Shown piece by piece: positions 1,402-24,605 of a DNA stretch of 42,450 nucleotides; the first letter of the stretch is position 1, and every line of letters starts with the position of its first letter. Both the position numbers and the translations under genes were made by a program. The stretch comes from Actinomycetes bacterium (GTDB taxonomy: Bacteria; Actinomycetota; Acidimicrobiia; Acidimicrobiales; JABEUL01). The stretch is from the NCBI GenBank assembly GCA_021791915.1, contig JAJYVQ010000003.1:1-42450 (forward strand), in the 5' to 3' direction. The notes below the pieces were generated by a model. It was given only the letters and a program-made list of their open reading frames with translations, did not search any database and was not told where the DNA came from.

Positions 1402-1551
1402 ATGATTAGACAATATAACTATCCCCTTTGTACAACTAGAAATCAAGTAGTTAAGGTAAATCACATGCTTGCAATCCTATTGCTTAGTAGGCAGTGTGTA
1501 CTGTCTAATGCAATACCTGTAGAAAGCATTGGATCAAATTGACCCAATACC
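1402..1551 (+). mobile_element. Internally deleted relic of the TIR-bounded TnpB element (tnpB 5' end joined to right TIR)
   Basis: 1402-1474 aligns ungapped to the tnpB start at 22966-23038 (60/73 nt, 16/24 aa). 1531-1551 ggatcaaattgacccaatacc matches the right end 24145-24165 at 20/21 nt. The micro-ORF 1402-1542 (46 aa) stops at the same TGA inside the TIR. Confidence 0.88.
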
Positions 1552-22183: not shown

Positions 22184-22852
22184 TCAGTCTGTTACATATA
22201 TAATGCCATCTGAAATAGCGAGATTTAGCTGTGTTAAGTTTGACGAAGCTGGACCTGATATAACTTGTCCAGTACTTAAGTCAAATTGTGATCCGTGACA
22301 AGGGCACTGAAAAATGGACTGTGACAGGTAGGGCTGAACCGTACATCCGGCATGAGGACACACAGCGTCAAAGGCAACAAATTTATTTGAAGAGAGGTGT
22401 AGAACATATGCAGGATCGCCCGAGATTGGGTCTGTAAAAGCCGCAATTTTTCCGATGGCTACCTGAGATGCTGGTCCAATCTCGGAACCAGAAACTGTCG
22501 TCTGAGGGGTTTGCGTAGGCGTAGAAGTACTTGGTGACGTTGATCCAGTACCAGTTGAACTCGGGGCATGTGATTGATTAGAAAGATTTAAAGTGTTGGA
22601 TGTCTGAGGCGGTGTATTGCTGGACATTAATCGACCGAATATGAATGAACCACCCGCAATCAAAAGAGCTCCTACAGCCGTATAGACTGTGCTTGAAGTC
22701 AAAAATCTTCGTCGATCTAAATCTATCTGTCTGCTTCTGTACCTGATGTTTGAGCTCTTATTTATATTATTGGCATAGTTGATTAAATAGGTTTCCAAAG
22801 AAAATAGATTTTGACGTCCCGCAATTATAAGTGGGATCCATGCGAAGAAAAA
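22184..22852 (-). pseudogene. 3' part of interrupted DoxX/DoxD-Rieske fusion gene (RR-FL motif, TM helix, S/T linker, Rieske domain)
   Basis: FAWIPLIIAG continues the DoxX domain; DRRRFL; CPHAGC...CPCHGSQF Rieske motifs. Confidence 0.9.
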
Positions 22853-22965
22853 GGTAGCGGGTCAATTTGACAACAATCCCACCATCTGCGGTTGTAGCAC
22901 TTAAATTGTATAATAATAACAAGATATAAATGGTCCACTGCATAAATAGCCAACTAGAAGATACA

Positions 22966-24156
22966 ATGATAAGAACTTTTAAATATCCACTTTATCCAAC
23001 TAAAAACCAAGTAGTTAAGTTAAATCACCTGCTTGCAACTCAGTGCGAACTGTATAACGCTGTACTAGAAGAAAGAATAGGACTCTATAAATGGAATAAG
23101 AAATCAGTGTCTTATTTTGACCAATGTAAAACACTGTCTCAATTAAAAGAAGTTAGACCAGATATTACTCAATATGGTATAACTGTAAACAGAGGAACGC
23201 TACAAAGACTAGATAGAGCTTTTAAGTCTTTTTACAGAAGATGTAAAACAGGTCAAAAAGCAGGGTTTCCAAGGTTTAAGTCTTTAAGTAGATGGGATTC
23301 CGTTGAATACATGGATAAATCTGGATGGACGATAAAAGAACCTGAAAAAAGAATAAAACTGTTAGGTATTGGAGATATTAAAGTAAAATTCACCAGAAAA
23401 CTAAAAGGTCTACCTAAAAATATAGTCATAAAGAAGGTAAATGATAAAAAATGGTATATTTCTATAGTTTGTACAGATATTACCCCTGAGATATTACCTC
23501 AAACCAAGAACGAAGTAGGAATTGATTTAGGGGTAGTAAATCAGGTTACTTTAAGTAATGGAACCTTAATAGAGGGTCAGCGATTGCTACAGAAAAGCCA
23601 AGACAAGTTAACATATCACAGCCAAAAGTTAGCTAAATGCAAAAAAGGTTCAAATAGAAGAAAAAAGGTTAAACAAAACCTATCTACTGTTCATAGGAAA
23701 ATAACTAACCAGAGAAAAGATTTTAATCATAAAATAAGTAGAGAATTAATAAACAACTTTGATTTAATAGTTCACGAAGATTTAAATATTAAAAATATGT
23801 CTAAATCCAATAAAGGAACTGTAGACAATCCAGGAATTAATAGACAACAAAAGAAAGGTTTAAATAGATCAATATTAGATGCAGGCTGGAGTCAATTACT
23901 TCAATTCATGTACTATAAAGCGGAAGAAGCTGATAGAACAATTATTGCAGTAAATCCACAATATACATCACAAAAGTGTTCACAGTGTAAATATATTTCA
24001 AAACAGAACCGAACAACTCAAAACAAGTTTAAATGCATACAATGTGGATATTTAGAAAATGCTGATATAAATGCAGCTAACAATATTTTAGAGGCCGGTA
24101 GGGCCTTACAGGATAGAACAGATTTGTCTGTTTTAGAATGTGTAGGATCAAATTGA
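22966..24156 (+). CDS. tnpB: RNA-guided endonuclease TnpB (396 aa from the likely ATG at 22966)
   Basis: N-terminal RTFKYPLYPT HTH region, GFPRFKS, RuvC-I GIDLG, RuvC-II VHEDL, zinc ribbon CSQC/CIQC, RuvC-III ADINAA; catalytic D-E-D intact. Confidence 0.96.
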   Translation: MIRTFKYPLYPTKNQVVKLNHLLATQCELYNAVLEERIGLYKWNKKSVSYFDQCKTLSQLKEVRPDITQYGITVNRGTLQRLDRAFKSFYRRCKTGQKAGFPRFKSLSRWDSVEYMDKSGWTIKEPEKRIKLLGIGDIKVKFTRKLKGLPKNIVIKKVNDKKWYISIVCTDITPEILPQTKNEVGIDLGVVNQVTLSNGTLIEGQRLLQKSQDKLTYHSQKLAKCKKGSNRRKKVKQNLSTVHRKITNQRKDFNHKISRELINNFDLIVHEDLNIKNMSKSNKGTVDNPGINRQQKKGLNRSILDAGWSQLLQFMYYKAEEADRTIIAVNPQYTSQKCSQCKYISKQNRTTQNKFKCIQCGYLENADINAANNILEAGRALQDRTDLSVLECVGSN

Positions 24157-24165
24157 CCCACTACC
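24091..24165 (+). ncRNA. Putative compact omegaRNA scaffold overlapping the tnpB 3' end and right TIR
   Basis: Stem-loops gaggcc-GGTAG-ggcctt (24091-24107), tagaacaga-tttg-tctgtttta (24114-24135) and ggatca-aat-tgaccc (24145-24159); terminal CTACC (24161-24165) is complementary to the first loop. Position matches known TnpB omegaRNAs, but expression is not shown. Confidence 0.45.
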
Positions 24166-24605
24166 AAGAAAAACACTATATCTGATCCAGTAAAGTATGG
24201 ATTTGAATGAAAGCTAACAGTCAAAAATAGCGACAAAGATATCAATAAGCCTCCAACGGCGGCGATTCTTGAAAAAAGTCCGATTATAGTACCAATTCCT
24301 ACTGACAACTCAGCTAGTGCAATTATAAAACCGATAAGACCCGCATAAGAGTGAAGTGGAATGAGAAAAGAACCGATGGGAGAATGATGCGAATATGCTT
24401 TAAACTGTTGTTGAATTGAGATCGGACTGTTGGGATTAAAAAATGCTGGGTTGGCCAATTTTTGTAGTCCCGCAAATATGAAAGTAATCCCTAAAAAGAC
24501 CCTTAGCGGTAGAATTGAGTAATCAAAACGGTCATATCCTTGACGATTTTGTGATCGCTCTTTAGTATCTGACAATTTATAGATATCATAGTTAGAATCT
24601 GACAT
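24166..24605 (-). pseudogene. 5' part of interrupted DoxX/DoxD-family membrane protein gene
   Basis: PLRVFLGITFIFAGLQKLANP...ELSVGIGTIIGLFSRIAA...FHSNPYFTGSDIVFF. The listed ORF 24018-24605 reads on into the inserted element, so its C-terminus is artefactual. Confidence 0.9.

What the first reader, a model, noticed from the sequence alone, without database searches (positions are those of the whole stretch)
24091..24190. Right TIR may double as the 3' end of an unusually compact omegaRNA
Only 78 nt separate the NAANNI codons from the element end, and there is no IS605-type right-end hairpin. Three stem-loops can form, and the loop of the first (GGUAG, 24097-24101) is exactly complementary to the last five bases of the TIR (CUACC, 24161-24165). 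This mirrors the pseudoknot that places the guide in characterised TnpB omegaRNAs. If real, the transposon end and scaffold end coincide and the guide is TSD plus flank (aagaaaaacactatatc…), which targets the empty doxX allele. The left junction of the filled allele matches only the first 8 nt. A 5-nt match can arise by chance, so this is a hypothesis.
Basis: inference. Interest (0 to 1): 0.75.

Follow-up and report, generated by a model that had tools for sequence, protein, structure and literature searches.

The report
Transposon end doubles as guide-RNA scaffold
The last 75 bases of a small jumping gene that encodes the RNA-guided nuclease TnpB very likely form that nuclease's guide-RNA scaffold, whose first hairpin loop pairs with the final bases of the transposon's inverted repeat; related copies support the pairing, but no RNA has yet been seen.

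Summary
GGUAG (24097-24101) is the 5-nt loop of a 6-bp hairpin and is complementary to CUACC (24161-24165), the last bases of an 18-nt TIR. The element (22853-24165) has a perfect 8-bp TSD and interrupts a DoxX-Rieske gene.

Comparative evidence supports the loop-terminus pairing:
- In 46 related right ends, 93% of cells pair and four of five pairs show changes on both sides (GGUGG/CCACC, GGUAA/UUACC, GGUCG/CGAC, GGCA/UGUC).
- 20,000 shuffles of the termini never reached this count.
- Where the two TIRs differ, the loop usually follows the right end.
- Synonymous codon choice in tnpB is frozen only at the five codons covering this hairpin.
- Gene-less miniature elements keep a GGUAG-loop hairpin in non-coding sequence.

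The conserved scaffold is 75 nt here and about 57 nt in high-GC relatives, against 116 nt in ISDra2. The tnpB stop codon lies inside the TIR.

The TIR (GGnnnTG) and TSD are IS1-type. A relative with the identical TIR encodes an IS1 DDE transposase; this genome assembly has none.

Insertion sites carry an orientation-specific G|C motif, possibly a TAM.

Not shown: the RNA, where the guide starts, and cleavage. This is a new variant of a known kind; Fanzor1 is the closest parallel.

The parts
22845..22852 (.). Left copy of the 8-bp target-site duplication AAGAAAAA. The base before it (22844) is G.
   Evidence: An 8-bp TSD is also seen in 14 other family members.
22853..22870 (+). Left terminal inverted repeat GGTAGCGGGTCAATTTGA, an IS1-type GGnnnTG end.
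   Evidence: 17/18 match with the right TIR. A near-identical 19-bp TIR (16 of this TIR's 18 bases) flanks an IS1-type DDE transposase element in G213.
22966..24156 (+). tnpB, 396 aa from the ATG at 22966 (an in-frame ATG at 22930 would give 408 aa). The RuvC D/E/D residues and the CxxC...CxxC zinc finger are present. The stop codon TGA (24154-24156) lies inside the right TIR.
   Evidence: Pfam OrfB_IS605, Cas12f1-like_TNB and HTH_OrfB_IS605. Alignment A1. Closest solved structure is ISDra2 TnpB, E = 6e-40. The stop codon is 9 nt from the end in most relatives.
24091..24107 (+). Stem 1 (24091-24096 with 24102-24107) and its loop GGUAG (24097-24101), the 5' strand of the proposed pseudoknot. 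It lies on the codons E-A-G-R-A-L.
   Evidence: Synonymous codon entropy is 0.34 bits here against 1.49 elsewhere. A non-coding equivalent, CCCUC-GGUAG-GAGGG, occurs in miniature elements.
24108..24141 (+). Stem 2, a variable hairpin. The base pairs 24108-24110 with 24139-24141 covary, and the inner stem is 24114-24122 with 24127-24135.
   Evidence: Base pairs are 95.6% paired, with 14 and 7 changes on both sides. The hairpin is rebuilt with other sequences in relatives.
24145..24159 (+). Stem 3, the hairpin next to the guide: GGAUC (24145-24149) with GACCC (24155-24159). Its 3' half and loop are TIR sequence. Two of the five bases of its 5' half (GG, 24145-24146) lie outside the TIR, and the corresponding left-end bases do not match them.
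   Evidence: 88% paired, with 3 pairs showing changes on both sides.
24148..24165 (+). Right terminal inverted repeat. Its last 5 nt, CUACC (24161-24165), are the 3' strand of the pseudoknot and the predicted end of the omegaRNA scaffold.
24166..24181 (+). Predicted guide: the right TSD copy AAGAAAAA (24166-24173) plus 8 nt of doxX flank. The 16-nt length is assumed from ISDra2.
   Evidence: Inference from TnpB and Fanzor biology. The 16-mer is unique in the assembly. No RNA data exist.
22184..24605 (-). The interrupted DoxX-Rieske gene. Joining the flanks with one TSD copy restores a 366-aa ORF.

Best explanation
Window 22853-24165 is a non-autonomous transposon with IS1-family ends (GGnnnTG inverted repeats, 8-bp target duplication). 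Its only gene is tnpB.

The last 75 nt (24091-24165) lie almost wholly inside the 3' end of tnpB. They most likely encode the scaffold of the TnpB guide RNA (omegaRNA): stem 1, a variable stem 2, a short stem 3, and then the terminal bases of the inverted repeat.

The loop of stem 1 (GGUAG) pairs with those terminal bases (CUACC), probably over 4 bp with the top pair of stem 1 open. This forms the pseudoknot that sits just before the guide in TnpB and Cas12 RNAs. The same DNA therefore serves as the transposase's substrate and as the 3' end of the RNA scaffold.

Transcription would run on into the flank. The guide would then be the target duplication plus downstream host sequence, which matches the uninterrupted doxX allele. 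It does not match the left junction, where only 8 nt agree.

The comparison of sequences shows:
- the ends and the target duplication;
- the IS1-type partner in relatives;
- the covariation of all three stems and of the pseudoknot;
- the codon-level constraint confined to stem 1;
- the gene-less miniature elements carrying the same module.

Still inferred:
- that the RNA is made and processed;
- that the guide begins at or within 1-3 nt of the repeat end;
- that TnpB cuts the empty site;
- that the G|C target motif is its TAM.
For: 1. Anatomy: the TIR is 17/18 complementary, with an 8-bp TSD here and in 14 relatives. TnpB domains and catalytic residues are present.

2. Pseudoknot: on alignment A4 (46 right ends) 93.2% of cells pair, and 4 of 5 pairs show changes on both sides.
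- L130 has GGUGG with CCACC.
- L131 has GGUAA with UUACC.
- L047 has GGUCG with CGACA.
- L088 has GGCAA with CUGUC.
- L087 has GAAAG with CCAUC.
- Termini changed to CUGCC keep a U.G pair.
- The 5 compensated cells were never reached in 20,000 shuffles of the termini, where the maximum was 4.
- Controls with the 3' partners of the whole structure slid by 1-3 columns pair at only 26-50%.

3. In L130, L131 and L042 the left TIR differs from the right TIR at these positions, and the loop follows the right end. This argues for a pairing local to the right end, not a shared transposase site.

4. Among 22 high-GC tnpB genes, the five codons R-A-G-R-A on stem 1 and its loop are nearly fixed as CGG GCC GGT AGG GCC.
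- Their codon entropy is 0.34 bits against 1.49 elsewhere.
- None of 171 other 5-column windows is as low.
- The six codons just upstream vary normally.
- The RNA-level constraint therefore starts at stem 1.

5. At least 11 gene-less miniature elements with the same right TIR keep a hairpin CCCUC-GGUAG-GAGGG in non-coding DNA, followed by stems 2 and 3 and CACUACC.

6. The stem-1 loop is the only conserved complement to the terminus within 200 nt upstream, in 23 of 26 elements.

7. Precedent from the literature:
- In ISDra2, nt -6 to -2 pair with the loop of stem 1 and stack on it (PMC10097598).
- The Fanzor SpuFz1 omegaRNA has a 75-nt scaffold spanning the right IR, a 14-15-nt guide from the flank, and gene-less 'ghost' copies (PMC10432273).
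- DDE-associated TnpBs have inverted terminal repeats with the tnpB 3' end within 250 bp of the transposon end (PMC10691335).

8. IS1 link: L101 in G213 is a 2,104-bp element with the TIR GGTAGTGGGTCAGTTTGAA and the TSD GGCTCAAA. It encodes a protein matching DDE_Tnp_IS1 at 36 bits, above the cut-off of 24.1.
Against: - No RNA evidence: three metatranscriptomes of the same study hold no contig from the locus, and Rfam has no match.
- The fold z-score is only -1.93.
- A 5-nt loop closed by G-C pairs cannot pair fully without opening the stem.
- The fifth pair fails in 8 of 44 sequences.
- L132 (GGUAA with AUACC), L129, L100 and the damaged copy C6 carry mismatches.
- Most family members share GGUAG with CUACC unchanged, so the covariation rests on about five lineages.
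- By position in the coding frame, the ISDra2 pseudoknot partner appears to lie about 20-25 nt further upstream, read from an ISDra2-like relative. Homology of the hairpins is therefore not established.
- The first flank base is C in 50 of 57 sites, which is odd for a freely variable guide.
- No IS1 transposase is found in this MAG.
- No empty doxX allele is seen in five metagenome runs. Neither current mobility nor homing is shown.
Confidence: 0.72

Rival explanations
1. The complementarity reflects DNA, not RNA. The internal GGTAG(G)GGCC would be a subterminal copy of the TIR tip, a second transposase-binding site, which evolves together with the ends.
For: GGTAGGGCC resembles the left TIR start GGTAG(Y)GGGTC. 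In L132 and L047 the loop equals the left TIR tip.
Against: - In L130, L131 and L042 the loop follows the right tip while the left tip differs.
- Only the 5 loop bases covary with the terminus.
- In the miniature elements the flanking stem is CCCUC/GAGGG, so the wider resemblance to the TIR is lost while the hairpin is kept.
- The DDE-bearing element L101 and the NYN-cargo element L102 use the same TIRs, and no such internal hairpin was noticed in the end sequences printed. Their interiors were not systematically searched.
Confidence: 0.08
2. The pairing is real, but the omegaRNA is not compact. The functional RNA would start well upstream in tnpB, as the roughly 230-nt primary ISDra2 transcript does, and stem 1 would be an internal element.
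For: - ISDra2 omegaRNA is made as a longer RNA, and its 5' part is disordered (PMC10097598).
- Nothing here maps a 5' end.
- RNAfold of 23940-24185 proposes long-range pairs, though with z = -0.84.
Against: - Synonymous sites in the codons immediately upstream of stem 1 vary normally. No other window of the gene shows a constraint like stem 1.
- Three right-end fragments in this genome (C143:11900, C143:37724, C106:462) all begin about 9-14 nt before stem 1.
- In the miniature elements, no sequence resembling the tnpB elements precedes the hairpin.
Confidence: 0.15
3. The scaffold does not end exactly at the TIR. The first 1-3 flank bases (C-R-A) would belong to the scaffold or be read as part of the TAM, so the true guide would start inside the TSD.
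For: - The first base after the omegaRNA-bearing end is C in 50 of 57 sites and never G. Positions 2-3 are enriched for R and A.
- ISDra2 has an unpaired base (-1A) between the pseudoknot strand and the guide (PMC10097598), and the IS605-type relatives show two bases (AC) there by eye.
- In Fanzors the 5' TSD is read as part of the TAM (PMC13565253).
Against: - The window copy and C6 start with A, and three sites start with T, so C is a preference and not a requirement.
- The bias could be a target preference of the transposase.
Confidence: 0.3
4. The match is chance plus separate constraints. The loop would be fixed by the protein motif A-G-R and the terminus by the transposase, with no interaction between them.
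For: Both segments are highly conserved: 28 of 46 sequences have GGTAG with CTACC. The motif NIL-x-A-G-x-A is general in TnpB.
Against: - The rare codons GGT and AGG are kept in 65-70% GC genomes, with no CGN arginine codon among the 15 of 22 genes that keep Arg there.
- The residue after G changes (R, K, G) in step with the terminus.
- Non-coding miniature elements keep the loop.
- The permutation test argues against independence.
Confidence: 0.05

Closest known systems
ISDra2 TnpB-omegaRNA (Deinococcus radiodurans; IS200/IS605 family; PDB 8H1J, 8EXA, 8BF8)
   Same: - The nuclease family is the same: the best solved match is E = 6e-40 over residues 4-376.
- The RNA overlaps the 3' end of tnpB and ends at the transposon's right boundary.
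- A pseudoknot forms between the loop of the 5'-most stem and the bases just before the guide.
- A hairpin sits next to the 3' pseudoknot strand (PMC10097598).
   Different: - The ISDra2 scaffold is 116 nt with a 19-nt stem-1 loop, a triple helix and stems 2/3a/3b. Here the scaffold is 54-75 nt with a 5-7-nt loop.
- The ISDra2 pseudoknot strand appears to lie further upstream in the coding frame.
- ISDra2 is moved by a Y1 TnpA as single-stranded DNA, has no TIR or TSD, and its TAM TTGAT is the TnpA target. Here the ends are IS1-type with an 8-bp TSD.
Fanzor1 (SpuFz1) elements of Spizellomyces punctatus
   Same: - A single RNA-guided nuclease gene lies between inverted repeats.
- The omegaRNA has a 75-nt scaffold spanning the right IR, with a 14-15-nt guide from the flank.
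- Many gene-less 'ghost' copies keep the IRs and the RNA region.
- Conserved bases upstream of the left IR act as the TAM (PMC10432273).
   Different: - Fanzor1 is eukaryotic, with a larger protein.
[quoted passage not shown]
- Its transposase superfamily is different.
Prokaryotic DDE-associated TnpB branches (DDE-1 to DDE-6; Altae-Tran et al. 2023, PMC10691335)
   Same: - The TnpBs sit between inverted terminal repeats.
- The tnpB 3' end is within 250 bp of the transposon end.
- Solo tnpB copies are bounded by the same ends as transposase-bearing elements, implying mobilisation in trans.
   Different: - The partners named in the literature read here are ISL2, IS630 and IS1031 (PMC13565253). 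IS1 is not listed.
- Here tnpB and the transposase were never seen in one element.
- No omegaRNA structure, and no dual use of the IR tip, was described for those branches in the texts read.
IS1 family insertion sequences
   Same: - The ends follow GGnnnTG and the TSD is 8-9 bp (ISfinder description, from my own knowledge).
- A DDE_Tnp_IS1 protein lies within an element carrying the identical TIR.
- Derivatives carrying passenger genes exist, such as L102 with an NYN-domain gene.
   Different: - The window element has no transposase, and none is detected in this MAG.
- Its insertion sites show an orientation-specific G|C motif, which is not expected from a symmetric DDE transposase.

Membership tests
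TnpB-omegaRNA (OMEGA) system | TnpB protein with a RuvC-like nuclease domain (D, E, D) and a zinc-finger/TNB domain | tested here: met
   Pfam PF01385, PF07282 and PF12323. GIDLG, HEDL, NADINAA and the CxxC pairs are present. ISDra2 TnpB is the best PDB match.
TnpB-omegaRNA (OMEGA) system | A structured non-coding RNA that overlaps the tnpB 3' end and ends at the transposon's right boundary | tested here: inconclusive
   A conserved structure with covariation in three stems runs exactly to the TIR end. The RNA itself was not observable.
TnpB-omegaRNA (OMEGA) system | A pseudoknot immediately 5' of the guide | tested here: met
   This is met at the level of sequence covariation only. Loop-terminus pairing is 93% paired, with 4 of 5 pairs compensated and 0 of 20,000 permutations reaching the count.
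TnpB-omegaRNA (OMEGA) system | A guide taken from flanking DNA and a TAM 5' of the target at the left flank | tested here: inconclusive
   An orientation-specific motif exists: G at -1 in 13 of 15 sites and C at +1 in 50 of 57. No cleavage or RNA data exist.
IS200/IS605 family (including the IS1341 group) | No TIR and no TSD; subterminal hairpins recognised by a Y1 TnpA; insertion 3' of a fixed tetra- or pentanucleotide | tested here: not met
   The element has an 18-nt TIR and an 8-bp TSD. It has no tnpA, and no fixed 4-5-nt left-flank motif is present.
IS1 family (non-autonomous derivative) | GGnnnTG inverted repeats and an 8-9-bp TSD | tested here: met
   The end is GGTAGCG/GGTAGTG, and the 8-bp TSD is seen at 15 sites.
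IS1 family (non-autonomous derivative) | A cognate DDE_Tnp_IS1 transposase acting on the same ends | tested here: inconclusive
   The transposase is found with the identical TIR in G213 (L101) and G456 (L197). It is absent from this MAG. Mobilisation in trans was not tested.
DDE-associated TnpB branches of Altae-Tran 2023 | tnpB encoded next to a DDE transposase inside the same inverted repeats | tested here: not met
   None of the roughly 40 loci examined carries both genes. The link rests only on shared ends.

The most novel reading that the evidence does not exclude
A TnpB lineage has been captured by IS1-family transposons. The variable tip of the IS1 inverted repeat has become the pseudoknot strand of the shortest natural TnpB guide scaffold so far (about 57-75 nt), written almost entirely inside the tnpB reading frame. 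Gene-less 'ghost' miniatures carry the RNA alone. The orientation-specific G|C motif at insertion sites would then be the TnpB TAM. RNA-guided cleavage of empty sites, and not the DDE transposase, would decide which insertions of a cut/copy-and-paste element persist.
Probability: 0.4. Interest if true: 0.68.

Novelty: new variant of a known kind. Interest (0 to 1): 0.56.

Why it matters
- It gives a bacterial counterpart to the Fanzor arrangement, where the guide RNA runs through a DDE transposon's inverted repeat. It also shows, by covariation, that a few bases can be shaped at once by a transposase and by an RNA fold.
- It links TnpB to IS1-type ends. The papers read here do not list IS1 among the DDE partners of TnpB.
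- It offers a very short natural scaffold (about 57 nt in high-GC relatives), which may interest people who trim guide RNAs for compact genome editors.
- The asymmetric G|C target motif makes an open question testable: what an RNA-guided nuclease does for a transposon that leaves a variable target duplication.

Tried and rejected
- Rfam scan of 22500-24600: only chance-level hits.
- RNA evidence: no RNA run holds the locus, and the three metatranscriptomes of the same study give zero contigs.
- Empty doxX allele or excision joints in five DNA runs: none. Only other insertion sites and internal deletion variants appeared.
- TIR search in this genome allowing 5 mismatches: mostly noise, and no transposase lies next to the better hits.
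- Scans of genome and metagenome collections with protein patterns gave few loci.
- Class-wide and order-wide covariance-model searches found the right end in only about 12 genomes, mostly one genus.
- My first idea was that the loops of IS605-type relatives (GGACU/GGGCU against AGUCAC; GGGAC against GUUCAC) extend the covariation across subfamilies. I dropped this as proof. In an ISDra2-like locus the terminus has a perfect 5-bp complement (UGAAC) at the D-L-N codons upstream, near where the cryo-EM structure places the ISDra2 partner, and not in the local hairpin loop.
- A second GGT codon about 147 nt upstream complements the terminus in 11 of 26 elements. The neighbouring Arg codon there is unconstrained, so it was rejected as a partner.
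- Stem 2 as an intrinsic terminator: no terminator-like site was found, and there is no U-run in relatives.
- The promoter scan was uninformative.
- One over-permissive regular expression for the flank tally was discarded and redone.
Full report
**1. What is in the window**

Positions 22853-24165 form a 1,313-bp element.
- It is bounded by 18-nt inverted repeats, GGTAGCGGGTCAATTTGA and TCAAATTGACCCACTACC, 17/18 complementary.
- It is flanked by a perfect 8-bp duplication AAGAAAAA at 22845-22852 and 24166-24173.
- Its only gene is tnpB (22966-24156), with Pfam OrfB_IS605, Cas12f1-like_TNB and HTH_OrfB_IS605.
- The RuvC D/E/D residues and the zinc-finger cysteines are present.
- The closest solved relative is ISDra2 TnpB, E = 6e-40.
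- The element sits in a DoxX-Rieske fusion gene on the minus strand. Joining the flanks with one TSD copy restores a 366-aa ORF.
- The host is a low-GC Actinomycetes MAG from mine-drainage samples.

**2. Check of the observation**

- N-A-A-N-N-I is 24070-24087, 78 nt from the end.
- Stem 1 is 24091-24096 with 24102-24107, and its loop GGUAG is 24097-24101.
- CUACC is 24161-24165.

RNAfold gives three stem-loops, but z is only -1.93. Neither the fold nor a 5-nt match is convincing alone, so the question had to be settled by comparison.

**3. Relatives**

This genome holds a second copy with an internal deletion and its own 8-bp TSD (C6). It also holds several right-end fragments and miniature derivatives.

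The protein has about 2,680 homologues at E < 1e-40. The nearest cluster, at 46-53% identity, is mostly from Acidimicrobiales and Actinomycetes metagenomes.

I fetched DNA by pattern scans, exact-protein look-ups and a covariance model of the right end. This gave 46 right ends in alignment A4.

**4. The pseudoknot**

On A4 the loop-terminus helix is paired in 93.2% of cells. Four of its five pairs show changes on both sides.

The informative lineages are:

| Locus | Loop | Terminus |
|---|---|---|
| L130 | GGUGG | CCACC |
| L131 | GGUAA | UUACC |
| L047 | GGUCG | CGACA |
| L088 | GGCAA | CUGUC |
| L087 | GAAAG | CCAUC |
| L048, L066 | GGUAG | CUGCC (U.G pair) |
| L043 | GGUAG | AUAUC (G.U pair) |

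- Shuffling whole termini among sequences never gave 5 compensated cells in 20,000 trials, where the maximum was 4. It matched the percentage paired in only 0.025% of trials.
- Sliding the 3' partners of the whole four-helix structure by 1-3 columns drops pairing to 26-50%.
- The loop is the only conserved complement to the last 5 nt within 200 nt upstream, in 23 of 26 elements.

Exceptions exist.
- The fifth pair (loop G with terminus C at 24161) fails in 8 of 44 sequences.
- L132, L129 and L100 carry mismatches.

**5. Three further lines show that RNA, not protein or the transposase, is being selected**

(a) Left and right repeat tips. In L130, L131 and L042 the two tips differ, and the loop matches the right one.

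(b) Codon choice. In 22 high-GC tnpB genes the codons R-A-G-R-A over stem 1 are almost fixed as CGG GCC GGT AGG/AGA GCC. GGT and AGR are rare codons in such genomes.
- Mean codon entropy is 0.34 bits against 1.49 for 182 comparable columns.
- None of 171 other windows is as low.
- The codons just upstream vary normally.

(c) Miniature elements. Genus g163 holds at least 11 gene-less miniatures of about 150-160 bp with the same right repeat. They carry a hairpin CCCUC-GGUAG-GAGGG in non-coding DNA, then a stem 2, a stem 3 and CACUACC. The loop is kept while the stem is rebuilt from other bases.

**6. The other helices**

- Stem 1, the base of stem 2 and stem 3 all covary.
- Stem 2 is rebuilt with unrelated sequences and lengths.
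- Stem 3 uses TIR bases for its 3' strand. Two of the five bases of its 5' strand (GG, 24145-24146) lie outside the TIR, and the corresponding left-end bases do not match them.
- The top pair of stem 1 is unpaired in 10 of 45 sequences. This fits the steric need to free a base or two if a 5-nt loop is to form a 4-bp pseudoknot.

**7. Compactness**

From the first base of stem 1 to the terminus the scaffold is 75 nt here and 54-63 nt in most relatives, with a mode of 57 nt. ISDra2 has 116 nt (PMC10097598).

- Constraint starts at stem 1 (point 5b).
- Three right-end fragments in this genome all begin about 9-14 nt before it.
- The tnpB stop codon lies inside the TIR, 9 nt from the end, in most copies. 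The RNA module is thus written almost wholly in coding sequence.

A longer primary transcript cannot be excluded.

**8. Relation to ISDra2**

In ISDra2, nt -6 to -2 pair with -102 to -106 in the 19-nt loop of stem 1 (PMC10097598).

In an ISDra2-like locus (L034) the terminus has a perfect 5-bp complement, UGAAC, at the D-L-N codons about 25 nt upstream of the local hairpin. This is close to where the ISDra2 structure places the partner.

The architecture here (loop of the 5'-most stem pairing with the bases before the guide) therefore works like ISDra2. It is not shown to be homologous position for position.

**9. What moves it**

The ends are not IS605-type.
- In G213 a 2,104-bp element (L101) has the 19-bp TIR GGTAGTGGGTCAGTTTGAA and the TSD GGCTCAAA. 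It encodes a 291-aa protein matching DDE_Tnp_IS1 at 36 bits, above the cut-off of 24.1.
- A second such element is in G456 (L197).
- L102 carries an NYN-domain gene between the same ends.
- GGnnnTG ends and 8-9-bp TSDs are the ISfinder description of IS1 (my own knowledge).

The tnpB element is therefore best read as a non-autonomous IS1-type element moved in trans. This MAG, which is 93% complete in 256 contigs, has no detectable IS1 transposase.

The published DDE partners of TnpB named in the texts I read are ISL2, IS630 and IS1031 (PMC13565253, citing PMC10691335).

**10. Guide and TAM**

By analogy with all TnpB and Fanzor systems, the guide should be the flank after the repeat. Here that is AAGAAAAACACTATAT.
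- It matches the empty doxX site.
- It is unique in the assembly.
- It matches the left junction only over the TSD.

A new observation bears on this.
- At 15 sites with a confirmed TSD, the base just 5' of the TSD in the left flank is G in 13.
- The first TSD base next to the omegaRNA-bearing end is C in 50 of 57 distinct sites and never G.
- The mirror positions show no such bias: the last TSD base is G in 11 of 46 type-A sites and base +9 is C in 15 of 46.
- Ends without an omegaRNA module show none either, in 16 ends read by eye.

A symmetric DDE transposase should not produce an orientation-specific motif. The simplest reading is selection through TnpB, either as a short TAM ending in G or as a requirement for C at the scaffold-guide junction. 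This is inference. It also leaves open whether the guide starts at +1 or a few bases further in.

**11. What could not be shown**

- No RNA was observable.
- No empty allele or excision product appears in five metagenome runs. The doxX insertion is present in several samples, and depth suggests about 2-3 copies.
- Cleavage, the TAM and mobilisation need experiments.

**12. Comparison and verdict**

The element works like a TnpB-omegaRNA system. Its layout is closest to Fanzor1 elements, where a 75-nt scaffold spans the right IR, the guide comes from the flank, and ghost copies exist (PMC10432273).
- It is not an IS200/IS605 member, because it has a TIR and a TSD.
- It fits the IS1 family as a non-autonomous derivative.

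I rate it a new variant of a known kind, of moderate interest.

Noticed in passing
L151, L154, L156, L160, L165, L168, L169, L178, L182, L185, L193; full views in L195 (about 2140-2300) and L196 (about 2104-2262): Gene-less 'ghost' miniature elements of about 150-160 bp in genus g163. They have IS1-type TIRs and a complete omegaRNA-like module: a hairpin CCCUC-GGUAG-GAGGG, stem 2, stem 3 and CACUACC. All 11 are followed by C. They may supply guides to TnpB in trans.
   Followed up: partly
Left flanks of 15 TSD-confirmed family members, and right flanks of 57 sites (for example window 22844 and 24166): An orientation-specific target motif. G lies just 5' of the TSD in 13 of 15 sites, and C is the first TSD base in 50 of 57. 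TSD positions 2-3 are enriched for R and A. There is no mirror-image bias at the other TSD boundary.
   Followed up: partly
window 1402-1551: A miniature derivative of the same family. The first ~73 nt of tnpB are joined to about 55 nt and then the right TIR ending CCAATACC. It lacks the stem-1 hairpin. Just beyond its end (about 1576-1590) lies GGTATTGGCAATTTT, which looks like another TIR.
   Followed up: no
L102 (G213:C6:249-2294): A 2,046-bp element with the same TIR type (GGTAGTGGCTCAGTTT) and the TSD CGGAGTTC. It carries an NYN-domain protein and a 269-aa ORF but neither a transposase nor tnpB. IS1-type ends therefore mobilise varied cargo.
   Followed up: partly
L187 (G456:C2:725814-725842) and L170 (G379:C223:505-567): Two TIRs lie head to head with only 5 nt (L187) or 14 nt (L170) between them, forming 29-38-bp 'empty' elements. 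In L170 a further right-end fragment follows.
   Followed up: no
G000:C143:37426-37724 (L088/L010): A miniature derivative of about 300 bp in this genome. It has a left TIR, four tandem copies of AAGAATATTACT, and a right-end module whose loop and terminus have co-varied (GGCAA with CUGUC).
   Followed up: partly
window 23640-23862, in runs X6 and X9: Contigs from sediment and wastewater metagenomes carry a variant of the element with a 210-bp in-frame internal deletion, between the direct repeats AAAAAAGGTT.AAATAGA at 23641 and 23851.
   Followed up: no
window 24154-24156, and relatives: The tnpB stop codon TGA is part of the TIR (AAATTGACCC), 9 nt from the element end, in most family members. 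The variable C-terminal tail of TnpB is therefore dictated by the RNA stems.
   Followed up: yes
L093 (G457:C3:266586-266654): A family member whose right tip is replaced by ...GAATGGCATGA, with a matching inverted copy at the left end. Both ends are flanked by the inverted sequences GGAGGCCCCCCT and AGGGGGGCCTCC. It may represent a different end type or a rearrangement.
   Followed up: no
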